DNA of 64,000 nt, from the NCBI GenBank assembly GCA_020632255.1, contig JACKFX010000002.1:18905-82904 (forward strand), read 5' to 3'. The stretch's first letter is position 1; each line of letters begins with the position of its first letter. The translations under genes were made by a program, and so were the position numbers. This DNA comes from Pseudomonadales bacterium. Its GTDB lineage: Bacteria > Patescibacteriota > Microgenomatia > UBA1400 > PJMF01. Under the pieces are notes generated by a model that made no database searches, was not told the DNA's origin, and was given only the letters and a program-made list of their open reading frames with translations. This document shows, piece after piece, positions 42,982-57,103 of this stretch.

Positions 42982-44739
42982 CTAATAAATAGTAGTTTCC
43001 TCAATATATGTTGTCGATGCGGCATCACTCGCGGGCAGATAGAAGATAATCATACCTTTACGGAAAAAATTACCCGTTTGATCACCTACAGAAATGTAGT
43101 GCCATTGACCATCATCTCTAACGGCTAAAATGAGGTCTCTATACAGGTGTATGTTTTGATCAGTCACATGCTGAACATGCAAAAGTTGTTCTGTCATGAT
43201 GCCATCATCCACAAATGCATAGAGCTCATCACCAAAAGTAACTCTTTCATAGGTGGTTTCTAGTAATTTTCTGTACAACGGCGTTTCAATGATAAAATCT
43301 GGTTTACTCAAATAATTTTTTTCAGCATCAATCCGTGGATCGAGCCAAAGAGCTGAATTACTAAATACTGTTGTCGCAAGATTTCCTGCATGGTATGGAT
43401 ACAGTATATGCAGCGGTTTACCTTTTGGATTGAGATTGTATGCTTTTTTTTCAAGCAAGTACTCTAACCCTAAAGCATCATAGTACTGCATGTCAAAGAT
43501 TATTTCACTCACTTCACCTTGAGTTACTAGTTCATCAATAGATTGAACAATCGCATCCTGATTTTTAATTTCGAGGTTGAGCGGATGCATATTCGAAAAA
43601 AGCAGAAAAAAGACATACACTGCAGTAAAGAGGATAAAAATAATTTTTTTCTGTAAAGCTGACAACAGTGTCCCTAAAACACTCGCAAGAATATAAAAAA
43701 TTGCAGGCAGTTGCACGAAGTAGTAATACTCTGGTGTCTGTCCACTATATAAAGAAAAACAAACTGCTATACCCAAAATCCAGAAAAATGAAAGCTGAAA
43801 CAACTTTTTTTCTTTTTCTGTAATCTTTTTATAAAGAAGTAAGGTGGTCAAAACTACCACTACCCCAGCAATCAAAATGAGTTCGAGAGAATTTCCTTCC
43901 AATAAAACACCGCCCAGGTTTTCTAGAGAAATTTGCATCGCGTGTAGAAGTGTAGTAAAAAAACCTACTAGACCAAACCCGGTCTTTCCTTCCAACAGAC
44001 TTAACAGTCCCCTTGTATTTAAATAATTATTTTTTATGTCAAAAAGCACTGTGGGCAGAAGTGAGGCAAGAAAGCCTACAAAAAGGGCCCCGTATAACCA
44101 TACGTTTTTATACCTACGCACCACTAAATAGATACAAGCAAGTGGAGCTAAAATGAGTCCAGAAAAATGTGCTTGATACCCTAAAAACGCCCCAACAAAG
44201 AGCAAGAACTCAGTTGGGATGTGTTTTCCAAACAATTGATATCTGTATTTTCTCTCTAATGCTAACAGAGGAAAAAATGTCAGACTACTTGCAAGAACAG
44301 TCAGATTTGGATTCCATAAAATTCTATCCATTGGAATCAGGAGTGGTGAAAATGCCCAAAGAGCAAGTATAAGGTGTTGTTCTCTTTCTACTACTTTTGT
44401 TAACCATGCTAGAGTTATCCCAGTAAGCAACGCTAAAAAAAGCGGTACAAAAATTGCTGTGTAGTGTGAAAATCCGAGAAAAAGAAACGGAGCCGCAACA
44501 TAATAGATGAGTGGCCCAGTAAACATTTCTGCCGGACCAGTTCTTGGCCCTAAAAAAACCAGGTCACCTTCAACAATTTTTTCTGCACTGGTTATAATTT
44601 GGAGATTATCAAACCCCAGTGGATAGTAACCAAATTTATATGCCCTAAGAAAAAGTCCAACCGCGACAATTAGAATGAGAATGATGCTGTTTTGTATTTT
44701 TTCAGGAATGCTTATCATTATCTTGAGTATAGCAAACAA
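42982..44739 (-). CDS. integral membrane GT-C-like glycosyltransferase (ArnT/PMT-related)
   Basis: About 12 TM helices with a conserved first-loop region (..LGFDNLQIITSAEKIVEGDLVFLGPRTGPAEMFTGPLIYY..) similar to the ORF at 51121..52686. Confidence 0.5.
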   Translation of the reverse strand: MFAILKIMISIPEKIQNSIILILIVAVGLFLRAYKFGYYPLGFDNLQIITSAEKIVEGDLVFLGPRTGPAEMFTGPLIYYVAAPFLFLGFSHYTAIFVPLFLALLTGITLAWLTKVVEREQHLILALWAFSPLLIPMDRILWNPNLTVLASSLTFFPLLALERKYRYQLFGKHIPTEFLLFVGAFLGYQAHFSGLILAPLACIYLVVRRYKNVWLYGALFVGFLASLLPTVLFDIKNNYLNTRGLLSLLEGKTGFGLVGFFTTLLHAMQISLENLGGVLLEGNSLELILIAGVVVVLTTLLLYKKITEKEKKLFQLSFFWILGIAVCFSLYSGQTPEYYYFVQLPAIFYILASVLGTLLSALQKKIIFILFTAVYVFFLLFSNMHPLNLEIKNQDAIVQSIDELVTQGEVSEIIFDMQYYDALGLEYLLEKKAYNLNPKGKPLHILYPYHAGNLATTVFSNSALWLDPRIDAEKNYLSKPDFIIETPLYRKLLETTYERVTFGDELYAFVDDGIMTEQLLHVQHVTDQNIHLYRDLILAVRDDGQWHYISVGDQTGNFFRKGMIIFYLPASDAASTTYIEETTIY

Positions 44740-45042
44740 TTACAAAAGACCATAAACTACTTTTTACCCTATAACTTGAAGTTACATTAAAAAATGATAT
44801 GGTCAAAAGTATCTGTGTACGAAGAAGGAATTGATAAATCAAAATAAATTAACCAAAAATCAAAAACAACTCTTACTAGACTTCAAAAAAACTCTCGAGT
44901 GCTACTAGAAAAAAAACAAACTCCAATCAATGTAGTCAAAAAAACGCACTCAAGAAGAAAATGGGAATGATTGGCAAAAGAATACAATAATTAGAGCATC
45001 TCGACCCTTACCTATCTGGTCTGAAACAAGTATACTACATAG

Positions 45043-54866: not shown

Positions 54867-55814
54867 TTATTGGTTTCTGTGCCAATCGACTATTCTTTTT
54901 ACCGTATCTTGTATCTTATATTCTGGATGCCATCCAAGGGCTGTAATCTTTTCATTATCCGCAATACTCACAGGAATATCAAGAGGTCTCATCCGATCTT
55001 CACGTTCTACCACGGTAATTTTGGCAGTACTTTCAGCGATCAAAAGAGATAACATTTCTTTGATTGAATGACCCTCACCTGATCCAACATTATAGACTTC
55101 ACCTGTCTCACCTCTATCTAGTAGAAGTTCATACGCTCTAACAATGTCTTTGACATCAGAAAAATCACGAATCGCATCTAGGTTTCCCACTTCTATGTGA
55201 GTGGCATTGCCACGCTCAATTTCAATAATTTGGTGTGCGAATGATGGAACTGCAAATGCAGTTGTCTGCTTTTCACCGATGTGGTTAAACGGTCGAACAT
55301 ATACTGCATCAAGTCCATAGGAACGTTGATACGCCCCCGTTAGCAGCTCTTGTGTTAGTTTTGAGACGGCATATGGGTTGATGGGGTTTAATGGGATTAA
55401 CTCATTTTGATGAGCAGCCAGGTCCTTCGATACCTGCCCATATACTGCAGCCGAACTAATTTGAAGCAGTCGAGCTTTTGGGGAAACTTGTTTCATGGCT
55501 TCTAACACAGATAACATTAATGTTGTGTTACTGTGCAACATCATTTCGGCTTTTTCAAAGCTATCCCCAACTGTTGCTACAGATGCCAGGTTGATTATAT
55601 ACTCAGGTGAACATTTCTCAAAACACTCCTTTGTTGCGGTTGAATCAGTTAAATCAAGAACATGCAATGTAACCCCATCTGGAACTTCTCTATCTTGACG
55701 ATCCGTCACCGCAATATTGGTATACCCACGATCAAGTAAATATTCAAGCAAGTGAGAACCCACAAAGCCGAGAGCTCCGGTAATTAAGAGTGATGAATCT
55801 TTTTGTAGTGCCAT
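54867..55814 (-). CDS. NAD(P)-dependent epimerase/reductase, likely GDP-4-keto-6-deoxy-D-mannose reductase/epimerase (Fcl/Rmd-like)
   Basis: [17 protein letters not shown] Rossmann motif and YAVSKL (YxxxK). Immediately upstream of gmd. Exact product not determinable by eye. Confidence 0.7.
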
Positions 55815-57103
55815 TATTTTCTTCCCACTCCCAGATACTCATACCCAGCTTTAGAAATTTTTTCGGGGTTGAATTGATTTCGTGCATCGATAAAGTACTG
55901 CTTTTTATCCTCTTTTGTTGATGCATAATCAAATGCCACTATCTCACTCCACTCAATCAATGCAATAACGACATCTGCTCCGGCCACTGCCGCTTCAATG
56001 GTTTCGTGAAGCTCAATCTGAGTATCTTGTAAGAAATATTCAGCAGATTTGAGAGCTTTCGGATCAAAACCATGAACTTCAGCACCTTTTTCGACTACCC
56101 AAGGCACAACTTTGGTACTCGGCGCCTCACGCATATCATCTGTATTTGGTTTGAAAGATAAACCAAGAACAGCAACTTGTTTTCCTTCCCAACCACCGAT
56201 TTTTTTACCATAGGCAGTCAATAGCCGATTAATGCGTTGATTGTTAAGCTCGTTGACTTTATTAAACAAATTTTGATCTTCACCAACTAATCTGGAGTAG
56301 TAAGCTAACTCTTTCACATCTTTCGGAAAACATGATCCACCATATCCAAATCCCGGATACCAGTAGTGGCCACCAACACGTTTATCAAGTCCAATTACTG
56401 AGATAACTTCTTGCACATCAGCTCCATTGTGTTCACACAAATCTGCGATCTGATTTATAAAAGTGATACGAGTTGCTAAATAAGCATTTGCTGCATATTT
56501 ACCCATCTGAGCAGATTCGGGAGTTACTTTAACAATTGGAGCTTTAAGTGGACTGTGTAAATCTTCTAGTACCTCAAAAACTTTCTCATTTGTTGCGCCC
56601 AGCACAACTCTGTCTGGGTTAAGCGTATCACTGACAGCACTACCTTCTCGTAAGAATTCAGGAACAGAAGCGAGATCATACCTTGCCGTAGCATGTGTTT
56701 TAAGTATGTCATCAACCGCATCCAGTGTTCCTGGAGGAACGGTAGATTTTACCACCACAATGACCCCTTCTTTAAGATGCGATGCCAATGATTCAGTTGC
56801 TGCATAGAGGTAGGAAAGATTTGCTTTGCCTTCATCGGTTGAAGGTGTGCCGACTGCAATAATAACAATATCGGAACCACCGACTGCCTCGCCATAGTCT
56901 GTAGTGAAAGAAAGATTTCCATCTTTTTGTTGTTCGAGAAGCAACTCCTCAAGTCCAGGTTCATAAAAAGGCACCTTGCCGTTACGGAGTGCCTGAACTT
57001 TTTTCTCATCAATATCAAGCCCAACAACAGTGTGCCCAAAGGAAGCGTACACAGCAGCTGAAACTACACCCACAAATCCTGTTCCAATTATTGTAATCTT
57101 CAT
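55814..57103 (-). CDS. ugd: UDP-glucose 6-dehydrogenase / nucleotide-sugar dehydrogenase
   Basis: MKITIIGTGFVGVV..., a GGSCFPKD block containing the catalytic Cys, and UDPG_MGDP_dh layout. Start at Met35, which has an AGAGAGG RBS. Confidence 0.85.
   Translation of the reverse strand: MKITIIGTGFVGVVSAAVYASFGHTVVGLDIDEKKVQALRNGKVPFYEPGLEELLLEQQKDGNLSFTTDYGEAVGGSDIVIIAVGTPSTDEGKANLSYLYAATESLASHLKEGVIVVVKSTVPPGTLDAVDDILKTHATARYDLASVPEFLREGSAVSDTLNPDRVVLGATNEKVFEVLEDLHSPLKAPIVKVTPESAQMGKYAANAYLATRITFINQIADLCEHNGADVQEVISVIGLDKRVGGHYWYPGFGYGGSCFPKDVKELAYYSRLVGEDQNLFNKVNELNNQRINRLLTAYGKKIGGWEGKQVAVLGLSFKPNTDDMREAPSTKVVPWVVEKGAEVHGFDPKALKSAEYFLQDTQIELHETIEAAVAGADVVIALIEWSEIVAFDYASTKEDKKQYFIDARNQFNPEKISKAGYEYLGVGRK

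What the first reader, a model, noticed from the sequence alone, without database searches (positions are those of the whole stretch)
42982..57103. Glycosylation locus B: complete toolkit for polyprenyl-P-sugar synthesis and periplasmic GT-C transfer, with an embedded two-component system and CorA
Within 14 kb are three or four GT-C membrane transferases (42982, 47446, 51121, perhaps 48998). There are two DPM1/ArnC-type GT2 enzymes that make polyprenyl-P-hexoses, one fused to a GtrA flippase-like domain. Nucleotide-sugar enzymes are present too: Gmd plus an Fcl/Rmd-like reductase give a GDP-6-deoxyhexose (fucose, rhamnose or 6-deoxytalose), and Ugd gives UDP-glucuronate. An OmpR-type regulator, a sensor-less histidine kinase and a CorA Mg2+ channel interrupt the cluster. 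The histidine kinase is co-oriented with the GT genes and convergent with the regulator. The arrangement resembles the ArnC/ArnT and GtrABC logic (cytoplasmic lipid-sugar synthesis, flipping, periplasmic transfer) but is multiplied and apparently regulated by its own two-component system. Mg2+ linkage via CorA recalls PhoPQ/PmrAB control of envelope modification. It is a good candidate for a regulated surface-decoration system whose acceptor (protein, glycan or lipid) is unknown.
Basis: partly seen in the sequence, partly recalled or inferred. Interest (0 to 1): 0.6.

Follow-up and report, generated by a model that had tools for sequence, protein, structure and literature searches.

The report
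Conserved CPR surface-glycosylation operon with its own regulator
This is a real gene cluster, conserved across dozens of related uncultured "Pacebacteria" (CPR) species, that most likely loads sugars onto a membrane lipid carrier and attaches them to cell-surface molecules outside the membrane. A minimal kinase/regulator pair travels with it; the kind of system is known, but this version has not been described.

Summary
On the minus strand, 57103→46694 is one tightly packed operon:
- Ugd
- an Rmd-type reductase, not Fcl
- Gmd
- a full-length archaeal-type dolichol-P-mannose-synthase homologue (GT2 plus GtrA/DPMS membrane domain)
- a PMT_2 GT-C
- a soluble DPM1/ArnC/GtrB-class GT2
- an MptA/B-family GT-C
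- a PMT (GT39-like) GT-C with an invariant Asp-Glu motif
- a 234-aa soluble histidine kinase with no sensor domain

An OmpR-type regulator converges on the kinase.

Across 80 species-level genomes of Pacebacteria/Microgenomates the gene order is kept. The six upstream genes are present in 56/59 loci, the PMT-like gene in 57/61, the regulator in 49/61 and the kinase in 34/61. Where the kinase is lost, the regulator's phospho-acceptor Asp and Lys decay (7/15 and 8/15 retained, against 37/37), so the two are a cognate pair tied to the operon.

CorA (4/61) and the fourth GT-C at 42982 (0/80) are specific to this lineage or genome, so the Mg2+/PhoPQ analogy is weak.

Best reading: extracytoplasmic glycosylation dependent on polyprenyl-phosphate sugars (mannose and probably D-rhamnose). 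The acceptor is unknown. It is a new variant of a known kind, of moderate interest.

The parts
55814..57103 (-). Ugd, UDP-glucose 6-dehydrogenase (429 aa). It is the first gene of the operon.
   Evidence: All three UDPG_MGDP_dh Pfam domains are present, and TIGR03026 scores 415 bits against a cutoff of 190. The best solved relatives are UDP-glucose dehydrogenases (4a7p, 1.5e-103), ahead of GDP-mannose dehydrogenase (1.2e-65).
57131..57139 (-). Extended -10 promoter element TGGTATACT. It lies 5 nt after the stop of the upstream S11 gene and 28 nt before the Ugd ATG.
   Evidence: Sequence read. The pattern TGnTATA[CA]T lies within 80 nt upstream of Ugd in 41 of 58 species, against 0.6% of random 80-nt windows.
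54867..55814 (-). Rmd-type GDP-4-keto-6-deoxy-D-mannose reductase (315 aa). It overlaps Ugd by 1 nt.
   Evidence: Best solved relatives are 2pk3 (GDP-6-deoxy-D-lyxo-4-hexulose reductase, 2.6e-55) and 6x3b (GDP-6-deoxy-D-mannose reductase, 3.6e-42). The next non-Rmd hit is at 2.6e-33, and GDP-fucose synthase at 1e-14.
53875..54852 (-). Gmd, GDP-mannose 4,6-dehydratase (325 aa).
   Evidence: TIGR01472 equivalog scores 442 bits against a cutoff of 415, and Pfam GDP_Man_Dehyd gives 5e-135. Identity across species is 69-88%.
52694..53878 (-). DPMS-type polyprenyl-phosphate sugar synthase: a GT2 catalytic domain fused to a GtrA/DPMS membrane domain (394 aa). It overlaps Gmd by 4 nt.
   Evidence: Pfam Glycos_transf_2 at 1e-28 and GtrA_DPMS_TM at 5.5e-17. 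Residues 3-371 align to residues 24-365 of P. furiosus dolichol-P-mannose synthase 5mlz, E 2.9e-46.
51121..52686 (-). GT-C of the PMT_2 type (521 aa) with an invariant FLGDQGRD motif after the first membrane helix.
   Evidence: PMT_2 at 36.7 bits against a cutoff of 26.1. 28 of 29 orthologues hit PMT_2. Invariant D42 and D46. No solved relative is detectable by sequence.
50344..51099 (-). Soluble DPM1/ArnC/GtrB-class GT2 (251 aa) with no membrane helix. Candidate polyprenyl-P-mannose synthase.
   Evidence: Glycos_transf_2 at 6e-26. Best solved relatives are the DPMS 5mlz catalytic domain (4.8e-16), ArnC (6e-12) and GtrB sll0501 (2.7e-11). No TM-like segment. Identity across species is 56-86%.
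48998..50344 (-). MptA/B-family GT-C (448 aa). It overlaps the GT2 gene before it by 1 nt.
   Evidence: Precomputed Pfam PF26314 MptA_B_family on this protein and on all 120 listed homologues. The model has pLDDT 89.7 and pTM 0.90. Top Foldseek hits are mostly GT-C enzymes (ALG3, AglB, STT3, ArnT, PimE, PIG-M), but none is significant; the best is E 0.13.
47446..48996 (-). PMT-like (GT39-like) GT-C (516 aa) with an invariant Asp31-Glu32 after the first membrane helix and a conserved C-terminal globular domain.
   Evidence: PMT_2 at 27.3 bits against 26.1, and PMT at 22.5 bits against 22.7. 27 of 31 orthologues match PF02366 PMT, best 8.4e-20. The family profile hits solved protein O-mannosyltransferases Pmt4 (2.5e-7), Pmt2 (9e-5) and Pmt4 (1.8e-4), and no ArnT. 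Invariant residues are listed.
46694..47398 (-). Soluble histidine kinase with no sensor domain (234 aa). It is the last gene of the operon.
   Evidence: HATPase_c at 4e-9. The family consensus keeps the H-box HAxATPLT, N-box NAxESY, G1 DxGxGM and G2 GxGLxF, while the N-terminal ~45 residues are unconserved. No TM-like segment at the N-terminus. Present in the same position in 34 of 61 species.
46015..46692 (+). OmpR/PhoB-type response regulator (225 aa), convergent with the kinase with 1 nt between the stop codons.
   Evidence: Response_reg at 1e-20 and Trans_reg_C at 4e-20. It lies within 3 kb of the PMT-like gene in 49 of 61 species. Receiver residues D54 and K104 are 37/37 where the kinase is present, and 7/15 and 8/15 where it is absent.
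45043..45960 (+). CorA-family Mg2+/Co2+ channel, co-directional with the regulator and upstream of it. A lineage-specific neighbour, not a conserved part.
   Evidence: Pfam CorA at 4.8e-44. Near the operon in only 4 of 61 species, and next to the regulator only in the closest relatives.
45008..45036 (+). Promoter of corA and the regulator: TTACCT, 17 nt, TATACT. It ends 6 nt before the GTG start, giving a leaderless-like layout.
   Evidence: Sequence read. The same CCCTTACC-N17-TATAAT arrangement is kept in L005 and L007.
42982..44718 (-). Accessory GT-C (578-585 aa), a distant paralogue of the 521-aa PMT_2 protein. It is an insertion specific to this genome, between the DEAD-box helicase gene and corA.
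   Evidence: BLASTP to 51121-52755 gives E 8e-14. Invariant Asp37 in FGFDQ directly after the first membrane helix. The model (pLDDT 87.6) hits PglB, Pmt4, ArnT, ALG9, AftB and PimE. Absent from this position in all 80 other species; in L005 and L007 the helicase gene abuts corA.

Best explanation
The locus is a clade-conserved operon for glycosylating the cell envelope outside the cytoplasmic membrane, using sugars carried on polyprenyl phosphate.

Shown by homology, fold or comparison:
- Ugd makes UDP-glucuronate. Gmd plus an Rmd-type reductase convert GDP-mannose to GDP-D-rhamnose.
- Two GT2 enzymes belong to the DPMS/DPM1/ArnC/GtrB class, which makes polyprenyl-P-monosaccharides.
- Three unrelated GT-C enzymes use such lipid-linked donors on the outer face: a PMT/GT39-like enzyme, an MptA/B-family enzyme and a PMT_2 'DQGRD' enzyme.
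- A soluble kinase with no sensor domain, encoded as the last cistron, and a convergent OmpR-type regulator form a cognate pair that has co-evolved with the operon.

Inferred from gene order and translational coupling:
- The genes form two donor/transferase modules.
- In the first, Gmd and Rmd feed the DPMS-type synthase, which makes polyprenyl-P-D-rhamnose (6-deoxy-mannose). The 521-aa PMT_2 enzyme transfers that sugar.
- In the second, the soluble 251-aa GT2 makes polyprenyl-P-mannose. This feeds the MptA/B-like and PMT-like enzymes, whose characterised relatives all use that donor.

My committed guess for the acceptor, at lower confidence (about 0.35): the PMT-like enzyme O-mannosylates Ser/Thr of secreted or surface proteins. 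The MptA/B-like enzyme then extends the mannose, and the PMT_2 enzyme caps it with D-rhamnose.

The role of glucuronate and the flippase step are unassigned. Because the kinase has no input domain and is co-translated with the pathway, it most likely reports pathway expression or a cytoplasmic intermediate to the regulator. The regulator's targets are unknown.

CorA and the fourth GT-C at 42982 are local additions.
For: - Family and fold assignments.
- Operon structure: genes overlap by 1-4 nt or are separated by 1-47 nt. A conserved extended -10 element lies directly in front of Ugd in 41 of 58 species, against a 0.6% background.
- Conservation: the order Ugd-Rmd-Gmd-DPMS-PMT_2-GT2-MptA/B-PMT-(HK)-RR recurs in species-level genomes. 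The six upstream genes are all present in 56/59, the PMT-like gene in 57/61, the regulator in 49/61 and the kinase in 34/61.
- In six species the block [PMT-like, kinase, regulator] is inverted as a unit and stays together.
- Cognate pair: the receiver Asp54 and Lys104 are invariant (37/37) when the kinase is present, and retained in only 7/15 and 8/15 when it is absent.
- The kinase keeps all catalytic boxes but has no sensor or membrane segment.
- The PMT-like enzyme has the invariant Asp-Glu pair after the first membrane helix, and its profile finds only protein O-mannosyltransferases among solved structures.
- Characterised MptA, MptB and Pmt enzymes use polyprenyl-P-mannose made by Ppm1 (PMC2157549, PMC2440535, PMC3485146, PMC5882110).
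Against: - No biochemical or expression data exist for any of these uncultured organisms.
- The sugar specificity of the two GT2 enzymes rests only on gene adjacency. Polyprenyl-P-D-rhamnose is not, to my knowledge, a described donor.
- The fold match of the MptA/B-like model to solved GT-C structures is not significant (best E 0.13, TM about 0.3). Its assignment rests on a precomputed Pfam hit that the local Pfam copy could not reproduce.
- The window's own PMT-like protein falls 0.2 bits below the Pfam PMT cutoff.
- No consumer of UDP-glucuronate and no separate flippase is encoded in the operon.
- No regulator binding site was found. In species where trmD diverges from Ugd, the intergenic space is only about 25 nt, leaving little room for an upstream activator site.
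- 12 of 61 species have the operon without a kinase or regulator nearby.
- The neighbouring S11 carboxypeptidase shows no consistent Ser/Thr-rich linker that would mark it as an acceptor.
Confidence: 0.65

Rival explanations
1. Lipoglycan synthesis of the actinobacterial lipomannan type. A membrane glycolipid, possibly a glucuronosyl-diacylglycerol made from the Ugd product, is extended outside the membrane by the MptA/B-like enzyme with polyprenyl-P-mannose into a mannan. The other GT-C enzymes then decorate that mannan.
For: - MptA_B_family assignment.
- A Ppm1-like GT2 sits directly upstream, with a 1-nt overlap.
- Ugd is the conserved first gene.
- In Corynebacterium glutamicum, MptB extends a mannan (Cg-LM-B) anchored on GlcA-diacylglycerol, using polyprenyl-P-mannose (PMC2440535).
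Against: - No GT4-type enzyme for making the glycolipid primer (equivalents of PimA, PimB' or MgtA) is in the operon.
- The resemblance to Cg-LM-B is an analogy, not a test.
- The PMT-like enzyme, whose relatives act on proteins, is as conserved in the operon as the MptA/B-like one.
Confidence: 0.25
2. Side-chain decoration of a wall polysaccharide. The operon is a set of 'three-component' glycosylation systems that add mannose, D-rhamnose or glucuronate branches to a peptidoglycan-linked, rhamnose-containing polysaccharide made elsewhere, for example by the Wzx/LCP/RmlBCD locus at 456-20590. This would parallel streptococcal and lactococcal rhamnose-rich wall polysaccharides.
For: - The same window carries a Wzx flippase, an LCP ligase, RmlB/C/D, GT2 and GT4 genes and more PMT_2 paralogues.
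- In about 25 species the operon lies directly next to rmlB-rmlD and trmD.
- The closest NCBIfam model for both GT2 enzymes is streptococcal PgfS.
- GT2-plus-GT-C pairs decorate wall polymers in Gram-positive bacteria (PMC8035078, PMC11127046, PMC9574508).
Against: - In another 25 species, including this one, the operon is not next to the rml genes.
- Adjacency to rml may simply reflect trmD synteny.
- Neither the PMT nor the MptA/B family has a characterised member that decorates a wall rhamnan.
Confidence: 0.25
3. An Arn-like lipid modification responsive to Mg2+ and controlled in the manner of PhoPQ/PmrAB, which is the analogy the first reader drew. Ugd, an ArnC-like GT2 and an ArnT-like GT-C would modify a membrane lipid in response to Mg2+ sensed through CorA and the two-component system.
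For: - Ugd, an ArnC-class GT2 and PMT_2/ArnT-superfamily proteins are present.
- CorA is co-transcribed with the regulator in this genome.
Against: - No ArnA, ArnB or ArnD functions are encoded.
- ArnC equivalog scores are 57-58 bits against a cutoff of 529.
- The PMT-like profile finds Pmt enzymes and not ArnT.
- CorA is near the operon in only 4 of 61 species.
- The kinase has no periplasmic or membrane sensor.
- CPR bacteria are not known to make lipid A (my own knowledge).
Confidence: 0.03
4. The cluster is a chance neighbourhood. Alternatively, the membrane proteins are transporters or polymerases and the GT2 enzymes are processive synthases, so there is no pathway that uses lipid-linked monosaccharides.
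For: - Two membrane proteins lack hits in the local Pfam copy.
- The MptA/B-like fold matches are statistically weak.
Against: - Gene order is conserved across about 60 species.
- Pfam PMT and PMT_2 hits are found across the orthologues.
- The 42982 protein has GT-C fold hits with probability 1.0.
- One GT2 matches DPMS over its full length.
- The 251-aa GT2 has no membrane segment, so it lacks the channel-forming membrane domain that, to my knowledge, processive synthases carry.
Confidence: 0.03

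Closest known systems
Actinobacterial polyprenyl-P-mannose pathways: Ppm1 with Pmt (protein O-mannosylation) and Ppm1 with MptA/MptB (lipomannan and LAM)
   Same: - A GT2 polyprenyl-P-mannose synthase homologue is present.
- A PMT-family GT-C with the Asp-Glu motif is present.
- An MptA/B-family GT-C is present.
- All three act on the outer face with a lipid-linked mannose donor.
(PMC5882110, PMC2157549, PMC2440535, PMC3485146)
   Different: - Here the genes are fused into one operon together with GDP-D-rhamnose and UDP-glucuronate synthesis, a second synthase of the archaeal DPMS type, a third GT-C type and a two-component system.
- The hosts are small-genome CPR bacteria, not Actinobacteria.
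- No PimA, PimB' or MgtA-type primer enzymes are in the locus.
Three-component (GtrA/GtrB/GT-C) extracytoplasmic glycosylation systems: O-antigen Gtr, CsbB/YfhO, GtlA/GtlB, GacI-L, lactococcal Csd, streptococcal Pgf
   Same: The logic is the same: a GT2 makes a polyprenyl-P-monosaccharide, the product is flipped, and a GT-C transfers the sugar outside. Synthase and transferase genes are adjacent (PMC8035078, PMC11127046, PMC7389260).
   Different: - No free-standing GtrA-type flippase is present. The GtrA-like segment is the membrane domain of a DPMS-type synthase.
- Two synthases serve three or four GT-C enzymes.
- The sugar-nucleotide supply genes and a cognate kinase/regulator pair are built in.
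Pyrococcus furiosus dolichol-phosphate mannose synthase (PDB 5mlz)
   Same: The 394-aa protein aligns over both the catalytic and the membrane domains: residues 3-371 against residues 24-365, E 2.9e-46.
   Different: - The host is bacterial, so the carrier is presumably undecaprenyl-type rather than dolichol.
- Translational coupling to Gmd and Rmd suggests that the sugar may be 6-deoxy-mannose rather than mannose. This is an inference.
GDP-D-rhamnose pathway (Gmd plus Rmd) of Aneurinibacillus thermoaerophilus S-layer glycan and Pseudomonas aeruginosa common polysaccharide antigen
   Same: Gmd meets its equivalog cutoff. The reductase's two best solved relatives are the Rmd enzymes 2pk3 and 6x3b.
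   Different: In those systems, to my knowledge, cytoplasmic GT-B or GT4 enzymes use GDP-D-rhamnose directly. Here no such transferase is in the operon, and a lipid-phosphate synthase follows instead.
ArnABCDEFT / PmrAB-PhoPQ lipid A modification
   Same: Ugd, an ArnC-class GT2, an ArnT-superfamily GT-C and a nearby OmpR-type regulator are all present.
   Different: - ArnA, ArnB and ArnD are absent.
- The kinase has no sensor.
- CorA is not conserved with the operon.
- The hosts have no known lipid A.

Membership tests
Three-component extracytoplasmic glycosylation system (GT2 synthase, flippase, GT-C) | A GT2 enzyme of the polyprenyl-phosphate monosaccharide synthase class | tested here: met
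   One GT2 matches DPMS 5mlz over its full length (2.9e-46). The best solved relatives of the other are DPMS, ArnC and GtrB.
Three-component extracytoplasmic glycosylation system (GT2 synthase, flippase, GT-C) | A GT-C fold transferase encoded next to the synthase | tested here: met
   PMT_2, PMT and MptA_B Pfam hits. The 42982 paralogue has a GT-C fold. Adjacency is seen.
Three-component extracytoplasmic glycosylation system (GT2 synthase, flippase, GT-C) | A small GtrA-family flippase | tested here: inconclusive
   No free-standing gene is present, and the operon has no gap for one. PF04138 occurs only as the C-terminal domain of the DPMS-type synthase.
Three-component extracytoplasmic glycosylation system (GT2 synthase, flippase, GT-C) | Demonstrated transfer of a single sugar from polyprenyl-P-sugar to an extracytoplasmic acceptor | not testable with these tools
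   This needs biochemistry or genetics, and the organisms are uncultured.
Protein O-mannosyltransferase (PMT, GT39) | Match to Pfam PF02366 at or above the gathering score | tested here: inconclusive
   The window protein scores 22.5-22.6 bits against a cutoff of 22.7. 27 of 31 orthologues match at E<=1e-3, best 8.4e-20. The family profile hits solved Pmt4 and Pmt2.
Protein O-mannosyltransferase (PMT, GT39) | Conserved Asp-Glu pair in the first extracytoplasmic loop | tested here: met
   D31 and E32 are invariant in 31 sequences, within PVFADEAIY directly after the first hydrophobic segment. That this motif defines PMTs is my own knowledge.
Protein O-mannosyltransferase (PMT, GT39) | Luminal MIR domain (eukaryotic PMTs) | tested here: not met
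   No MIR hit was found. A different conserved C-terminal globular domain is present. To my knowledge, bacterial Pmt enzymes also lack MIR.
MptA/MptB alpha-1,6-mannosyltransferases (Pfam PF26314) | Match to the family model | tested here: met
   Precomputed PF26314 hits on the window protein and on all 120 listed homologues. The local Pfam copy gave no hit, so the match could not be rescored here.
MptA/MptB alpha-1,6-mannosyltransferases (Pfam PF26314) | GT-C fold | tested here: inconclusive
MptA/MptB alpha-1,6-mannosyltransferases (Pfam PF26314) | Acts on a PIM or glycolipid primer made by cytoplasmic GT4 enzymes | tested here: not met
   No GT4 or PimA-like gene lies in the conserved operon. 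One could be encoded elsewhere.
GDP-D-rhamnose pathway (Gmd plus Rmd) | Gmd equivalog | tested here: met
   TIGR01472 scores 442.4 bits against a cutoff of 415.
GDP-D-rhamnose pathway (Gmd plus Rmd) | A 4-reductase of the Rmd type rather than the Fcl/GMER epimerase-reductase | tested here: met
   2pk3 scores 191 bits and 6x3b 148 bits. The NCBIfam Fcl model scores 76 bits against a cutoff of 500, and PDB Fcl entries are at 1e-14. The stereochemistry of the reduction (rhamnose or 6-deoxytalose) cannot be told from sequence.
Arn (aminoarabinose) lipid A modification pathway | ArnA, ArnB and ArnD functions present | tested here: not met
   No formyltransferase, aminotransferase or deformylase domain is found in any ORF of the locus.
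Arn (aminoarabinose) lipid A modification pathway | ArnC and ArnT equivalogs | tested here: not met
   The ArnC model NF007986 scores 57-58 bits against a cutoff of 529. The GT-C profiles find no ArnT among solved structures by sequence.
Classical two-component system | Kinase with H, N, G1 and G2 boxes, and regulator with receiver Asp and Lys plus a winged-helix output domain | tested here: met
Classical two-component system | Kinase carries a sensory input domain or membrane segments | tested here: not met
   The kinase has 234 aa. Its N-terminal ~45 residues are unconserved, and it has no Pfam sensor domain and no TM-like segment at the N-terminus.

The most novel reading that the evidence does not exclude
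Pacebacteria (CPR) build an actinobacteria-like envelope glycoconjugate dependent on polyprenyl-P-mannose (O-mannosyl glycoprotein and/or lipomannan). They also use a lipid-linked sugar donor that has not been described, polyprenyl-P-D-rhamnose, made by an archaeal-type DPMS homologue. Output is tied to gene expression through a sensor-less kinase whose dose is set by translation of the pathway operon itself. In lineages that lost the kinase, the regulator has become phosphorylation-independent.
Probability: 0.2. Interest if true: 0.65.

Novelty: new variant of a known kind. Interest (0 to 1): 0.45.

Why it matters
CPR/Patescibacteria are thought to live attached to other cells, yet almost nothing is known about the chemistry of their surfaces. 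This operon is one of the most conserved multi-gene blocks I saw around these genes, and it commits a large share of a small genome to GT-C enzymes. The 64-kb window alone holds eight GT-C-type genes plus one related membrane protein. The operon therefore names concrete candidates for the surface glycans that could mediate attachment, phage recognition or envelope integrity. It also predicts their sugars (mannose, D-rhamnose, glucuronate).

It further shows enzyme families best known from Actinobacteria and eukaryotes (PMT, MptA/B, DPMS) working together in a distant bacterial radiation. The pairing with a minimal kinase/regulator, whose receiver decays when the kinase is lost, is a clean natural experiment on how two-component systems degrade. 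All of this can be tested by heterologous expression in Corynebacterium or Streptomyces mutants.

Tried and rejected
- **Regulator-binding repeats.** The repeat finder on 44700-45060 gave only short A-rich two-copy matches. The generic promoter and terminator scan was at chance level: 39 promoter-like sites against 39.6 expected. Cross-species comparison showed only a standard promoter upstream of corA and an extended -10 upstream of Ugd. No OmpR-type direct repeat could be claimed.
- **Mg2+/CorA link.** Rejected on distribution, 4 of 61 species.
- **Recurrent partner gene upstream of the regulator.** None exists beyond CorA in the closest clade.
- **S11 carboxypeptidase as a Ser/Thr-rich acceptor**, by analogy with streptococcal PBPs (PMC11092751). 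The linkers are only 8-21% Ser+Thr and are not consistent.
- **'Ugd' as a GDP-mannose dehydrogenase.** Rejected.
- **The SDR as Fcl, a UDP-GlcA decarboxylase or a UDP-GlcA 4-epimerase.** Rejected, because the Rmd hits are about 70 bits better than any other.
- **Profile-profile comparison of the MptA/B-like family with the 42982 family.** No relationship was found. They are different GT-C classes.
- **Sequence searches of the PDB** with the 42982, 48998 and 51121 proteins or their profiles found nothing.
- **Literature searches** for this operon or for GT-C/mannosyltransferase systems in CPR found nothing relevant. That covers only the open-access library searched.
- **Rfam search for a T-box upstream of aspS.** No hit was found, even at E<=1.

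Full report
**1. What is in the sequence.**

ORF listing and translation show a run of co-oriented minus-strand genes from 57103 down to 46694. A plus-strand pair (45043-45960 and 46015-46692) converges on its end, and a further minus-strand gene lies at 42982-44739. The gene calls stored with the public copy of this contig give the likely true starts (NCBI GCA_020429005.1, labelled Candidatus Woesebacteria in nr and, wrongly, 'Pseudomonadales' in the MAG record):
- Ugd: 429 aa, start 57103.
- Gmd: 325 aa, start 54852.
- The two PMT_2 proteins: 521 aa and 516 aa.
- Kinase: 234 aa.

Neighbouring genes overlap by 1-4 nt (Ugd/Rmd, Gmd/DPMS-type GT2, GT2/MptA-B) or are separated by 1-47 nt. This indicates one transcription unit with translational coupling.

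**2. Identity of each gene.**

*Nucleotide-sugar enzymes.*
- Gmd passes its NCBIfam equivalog cutoff (442 bits against 415).
- The neighbouring SDR is Rmd-type. Its two best solved relatives are the GDP-4-keto-6-deoxy-D-mannose reductases 2pk3 (2.6e-55) and 6x3b (3.6e-42). The next non-Rmd hit is a GalE at 2.6e-33, and GDP-fucose synthases appear only at 1e-14. The NCBIfam Fcl model scores 76 bits against a cutoff of 500.
- The deoxy-sugar is therefore GDP-D-rhamnose, or its C4 epimer 6-deoxy-D-talose, which sequence cannot exclude. It is not fucose.
- Ugd is closer to UDP-glucose dehydrogenases (4a7p, 1.5e-103) than to GDP-mannose dehydrogenase (1.2e-65).

*GT2 enzymes.*
- The 394-aa GT2 aligns end to end with Pyrococcus furiosus dolichol-phosphate mannose synthase 5mlz (residues 3-371 against 24-365, E 2.9e-46). 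Its 'GtrA' part is therefore the membrane domain of a DPMS-type synthase (Pfam GtrA_DPMS_TM), not a separate flippase.
- The 251-aa GT2 has no hydrophobic segment. Its best solved relatives are the DPMS catalytic domain, ArnC and GtrB.
- Both GT2 enzymes thus belong to the class that makes lipid-phosphate monosaccharides.

*Membrane proteins.*
- 47446-48996 matches PMT_2 and, 0.2 bits under the cutoff, PMT.
  - 27 of 31 orthologues match Pfam PMT, best 8.4e-20.
  - A profile of the family finds only protein O-mannosyltransferases among all solved structures: Pmt4 at 2.5e-7, Pmt2 at 9e-5 and Pmt4 at 1.8e-4.
  - An Asp-Glu pair directly after the first membrane segment is invariant.
- 51121-52686 is PMT_2 only, with an invariant FLGDQGRD motif.
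- 48998-50344 belongs to Pfam MptA_B_family according to the precomputed annotation of this protein and of all 120 listed homologues.
  - The local Pfam copy gives no hit.
  - Its AlphaFold model is confident (pLDDT 89.7).
  - Foldseek ranks mostly GT-C enzymes first (ALG3, AglB, STT3, ArnT, PimE, PIG-M), but none significantly; the best is E 0.13.
- 42982-44739 has no family hit but is a paralogue of the 521-aa protein (E 8e-14).
  - It has an invariant Asp in FGFDQ right after the first helix.
  - Its model matches PglB, Pmt4, ArnT, ALG9, AftB and PimE with probability 1.0 (E 1e-4 to 3e-2).

**3. Comparative evidence.**

A scan of one genome per species with an MptA/B-family profile returned 80 loci. 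All are from Pacebacteria/Paceibacterota, Woesebacteria or Microgenomates MAGs, and many are mislabelled 'uncultured Pseudomonadales'. I assigned every ORF in them to the window's proteins by BLASTP and counted.

| Feature | Count |
|---|---|
| All six upstream genes (Ugd, Rmd, Gmd, DPMS-type GT2, PMT_2, soluble GT2), in loci with enough upstream sequence | 56 of 59 |
| PMT-like gene after the MptA/B gene | 57 of 61 |
| Regulator within 3 kb | 49 of 61 |
| Kinase, always together with the regulator | 34 of 61 |
| Regulator alone | 15 of 61 |
| Neither kinase nor regulator | 12 of 61 |
| CorA anywhere in the locus | 4 of 61 |
| Homologue of the 42982 protein at this locus | 0 of 80 |

- In six species the block [PMT-like, kinase, regulator] is inverted as a unit. 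A tRNA gene sits at the junction.
- In the closest relatives the DEAD-box helicase gene abuts corA, so 42982-44739 and its 303-bp AT-rich upstream region are an insertion in this genome.
- Homologues of the inserted gene occur elsewhere in related genomes, for example within arrays of GT-C, GT2 and GT4 genes.
- The operon has two alternative upstream neighbours: aspS plus an S11 carboxypeptidase (about 25 species, including this one), or rmlB-rmlD plus a divergent trmD (about 25 species).

**4. The two-component system.**

- The kinase family keeps the H, N, G1 and G2 boxes. Its first ~45 residues are unconserved, and it has no sensor domain and no membrane segment.
- The regulator has the full receiver signature.
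- Where the kinase is present, Asp54 and Lys104 are invariant (37/37 each) and Glu10 is 36/37.
- Where the kinase is absent, Asp54 survives in only 7 of 15 regulators (replaced by Glu, Ser, Tyr or Ala) and Lys104 in 8 of 15.
- This co-variation is good evidence that the two proteins are a cognate pair. It also shows that the regulator is retained next to the operon, as an atypical phosphorylation-independent form, after the kinase is lost.
- The regulator's targets remain unknown; section 5 covers the search for binding sites.

**5. Promoters.**

- An extended -10 element (TGGTATACT, 57139-57131, minus strand) lies between the S11 stop codon and the Ugd start.
- The pattern TGnTATA[CA]T is found within 80 nt of the Ugd start in 41 of 58 species, against 0.6% of random windows. 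In 12 species it is only 6-11 nt from the ATG.
- The operon therefore starts at Ugd and is not simply read through from aspS.
- corA and the regulator share a promoter kept in the nearest relatives: TTACCT, 17 nt, TATACT, ending 6 nt before the start codon.
- No OmpR-type direct repeats could be identified.
- Where trmD diverges from Ugd, the intergenic region is only about 25 nt.

**6. How it most likely works.**

*Shown by homology.* The operon supplies UDP-GlcA and GDP-D-Rha. It also encodes two lipid-phosphate sugar synthases and three unrelated GT-C transferases.

*Inferred from order and coupling.*
- Gmd and Rmd feed the DPMS-type synthase, which is followed by the PMT_2 enzyme. This would be a D-rhamnose branch.
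- The soluble GT2 feeds the MptA/B-like and PMT-like enzymes. This would be a mannose branch.
- Characterised MptA, MptB and Pmt enzymes all use polyprenyl-P-mannose made by Ppm1 (PMC2157549, PMC2440535, PMC3485146, PMC5882110), which supports the second pairing.

*Not resolved.*
- The acceptor cannot be determined computationally.
- I favour protein O-mannosylation started by the PMT-like enzyme and elaborated by the other two, at about 0.35.
- The alternatives are a lipomannan-like lipoglycan and decoration of a wall rhamnan, at about 0.25 each.
- The lipoglycan reading has a notable precedent: C. glutamicum Cg-LM-B is a mannan on a glucuronosyl-diacylglycerol anchor extended by MptB, and Ugd is the first gene here.
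- The wall-rhamnan reading is supported by the window's other locus (Wzx, LCP ligase, RmlBCD) and by the rml adjacency in half the species.
- The kinase lacks any input domain and is the last cistron. It probably reports pathway expression or a cytoplasmic intermediate. This is inference only.

**7. Comparison with what is known.**

- The system works like the three-component Gtr-type systems of Gram-negative and Gram-positive bacteria (PMC8035078, PMC11127046), and like actinobacterial Ppm1/Pmt/Mpt pathways.
- It is not an Arn pathway. ArnA, ArnB and ArnD are absent, ArnC equivalog scores are about a tenth of the cutoff, and the GT-C profiles do not find ArnT by sequence.
- The new elements are the combination of three GT-C classes with two synthases and two sugar-nucleotide branches in one operon, its tight conservation across a CPR clade, and the attached minimal kinase/regulator pair.
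- I found no paper that describes it, within the limits of the library searched.

**8. Verdict.**

I class the finding as a new variant of a known kind. Interest is moderate (0.45). It is a well-defined, testable entry point into CPR surface glycobiology and holds a neat case of two-component decay. The underlying logic is established, and the acceptor, donor specificities and regulon are still inferred.

Noticed in passing
window 456-20590: A second, larger glycan locus lies here. It holds:
- two PMT_2 GT-C genes (3307-4959 and 6783-8369);
- two unannotated membrane proteins (456-2291 and 5005-6810) that are paralogues of the first PMT_2 gene (E 1.7e-24 and 1e-5);
- four GT2 genes and one GT4 gene;
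- a Wzx-type flippase (13293-14864);
- a PTPS_related membrane protein (14864-16612);
- an LCP ligase (16627-17853);
- RmlB, RmlC and RmlD (18096-20590).

With locus B, the window holds eight GT-C-type genes plus this one related membrane protein.
   Followed up: partly
window 59654-59723, minus strand (upstream of aspS, 58146-59570): A leader carries the T-box core sequence GGTGGCACCG (59723-59714). A strong hairpin (59692-59662) and a T-run (59661-59654) follow it.

The motif GGTGG[C/T]ACC[A/G] is present upstream of aspS in 24 of 29 related loci, usually with a T-run 45-65 nt downstream. Rfam finds no T-box or any other family here, even at E<=1, nor in seven related loci at gathering threshold.

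This may be a divergent CPR T-box leader.
   Followed up: partly
window 45031-45045; related loci upstream of Ugd: The -10 elements sit only 6-11 nt before start codons. This holds for corA here and in L004, L005 and L007, and for Ugd in 12 species. It suggests leaderless or near-leaderless mRNAs in these organisms.
   Followed up: partly
L006 11347-11417, L010 11286-11356, L040 11210-11280, L047 14439-14509: A tRNA gene lies just beyond the regulator in the canonical arrangement (L047). In the species where the [PMT-like, kinase, regulator] block is inverted, it lies at the junction with the MptA/B gene. The tRNA gene therefore lies at, or moved with, the boundary of the inverted block.
   Followed up: no
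related loci L018-L084 (upstream of Ugd); window 18096-21253: In about 25 species the operon lies directly downstream of rmlB-(rmlC)-rmlD and a divergent trmD. In this genome the same rmlBCD-trmD block sits 35 kb away, next to the other glycan locus. A rearrangement seems to have separated two gene sets that are neighbours elsewhere.
   Followed up: partly
L004/L008 13664-14731: In one related species an Acyl_transf_3 (O-acyltransferase) gene is inserted between the kinase and the regulator. The 521-aa PMT_2 gene is missing from the operon there, and a different 494-aa PMT_2 gene sits beyond corA.
   Followed up: no
record titles of L009, L013, L020 and others; P0001: Many of these CPR MAGs are deposited as 'uncultured Pseudomonadales bacterium' (others as Limisphaerales, Methylococcaceae or Vitreimonas). 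Their gene content and closest relatives are Pacebacteria/Microgenomates, so the public records appear to be mislabelled.
   Followed up: no
window 34000-38000: A low-GC stretch (0.34, against about 0.41 elsewhere) with a reversal of GC skew lies next to a tRNA-Gln gene at 34183-34254. It may be an inserted element and was not examined.
   Followed up: no
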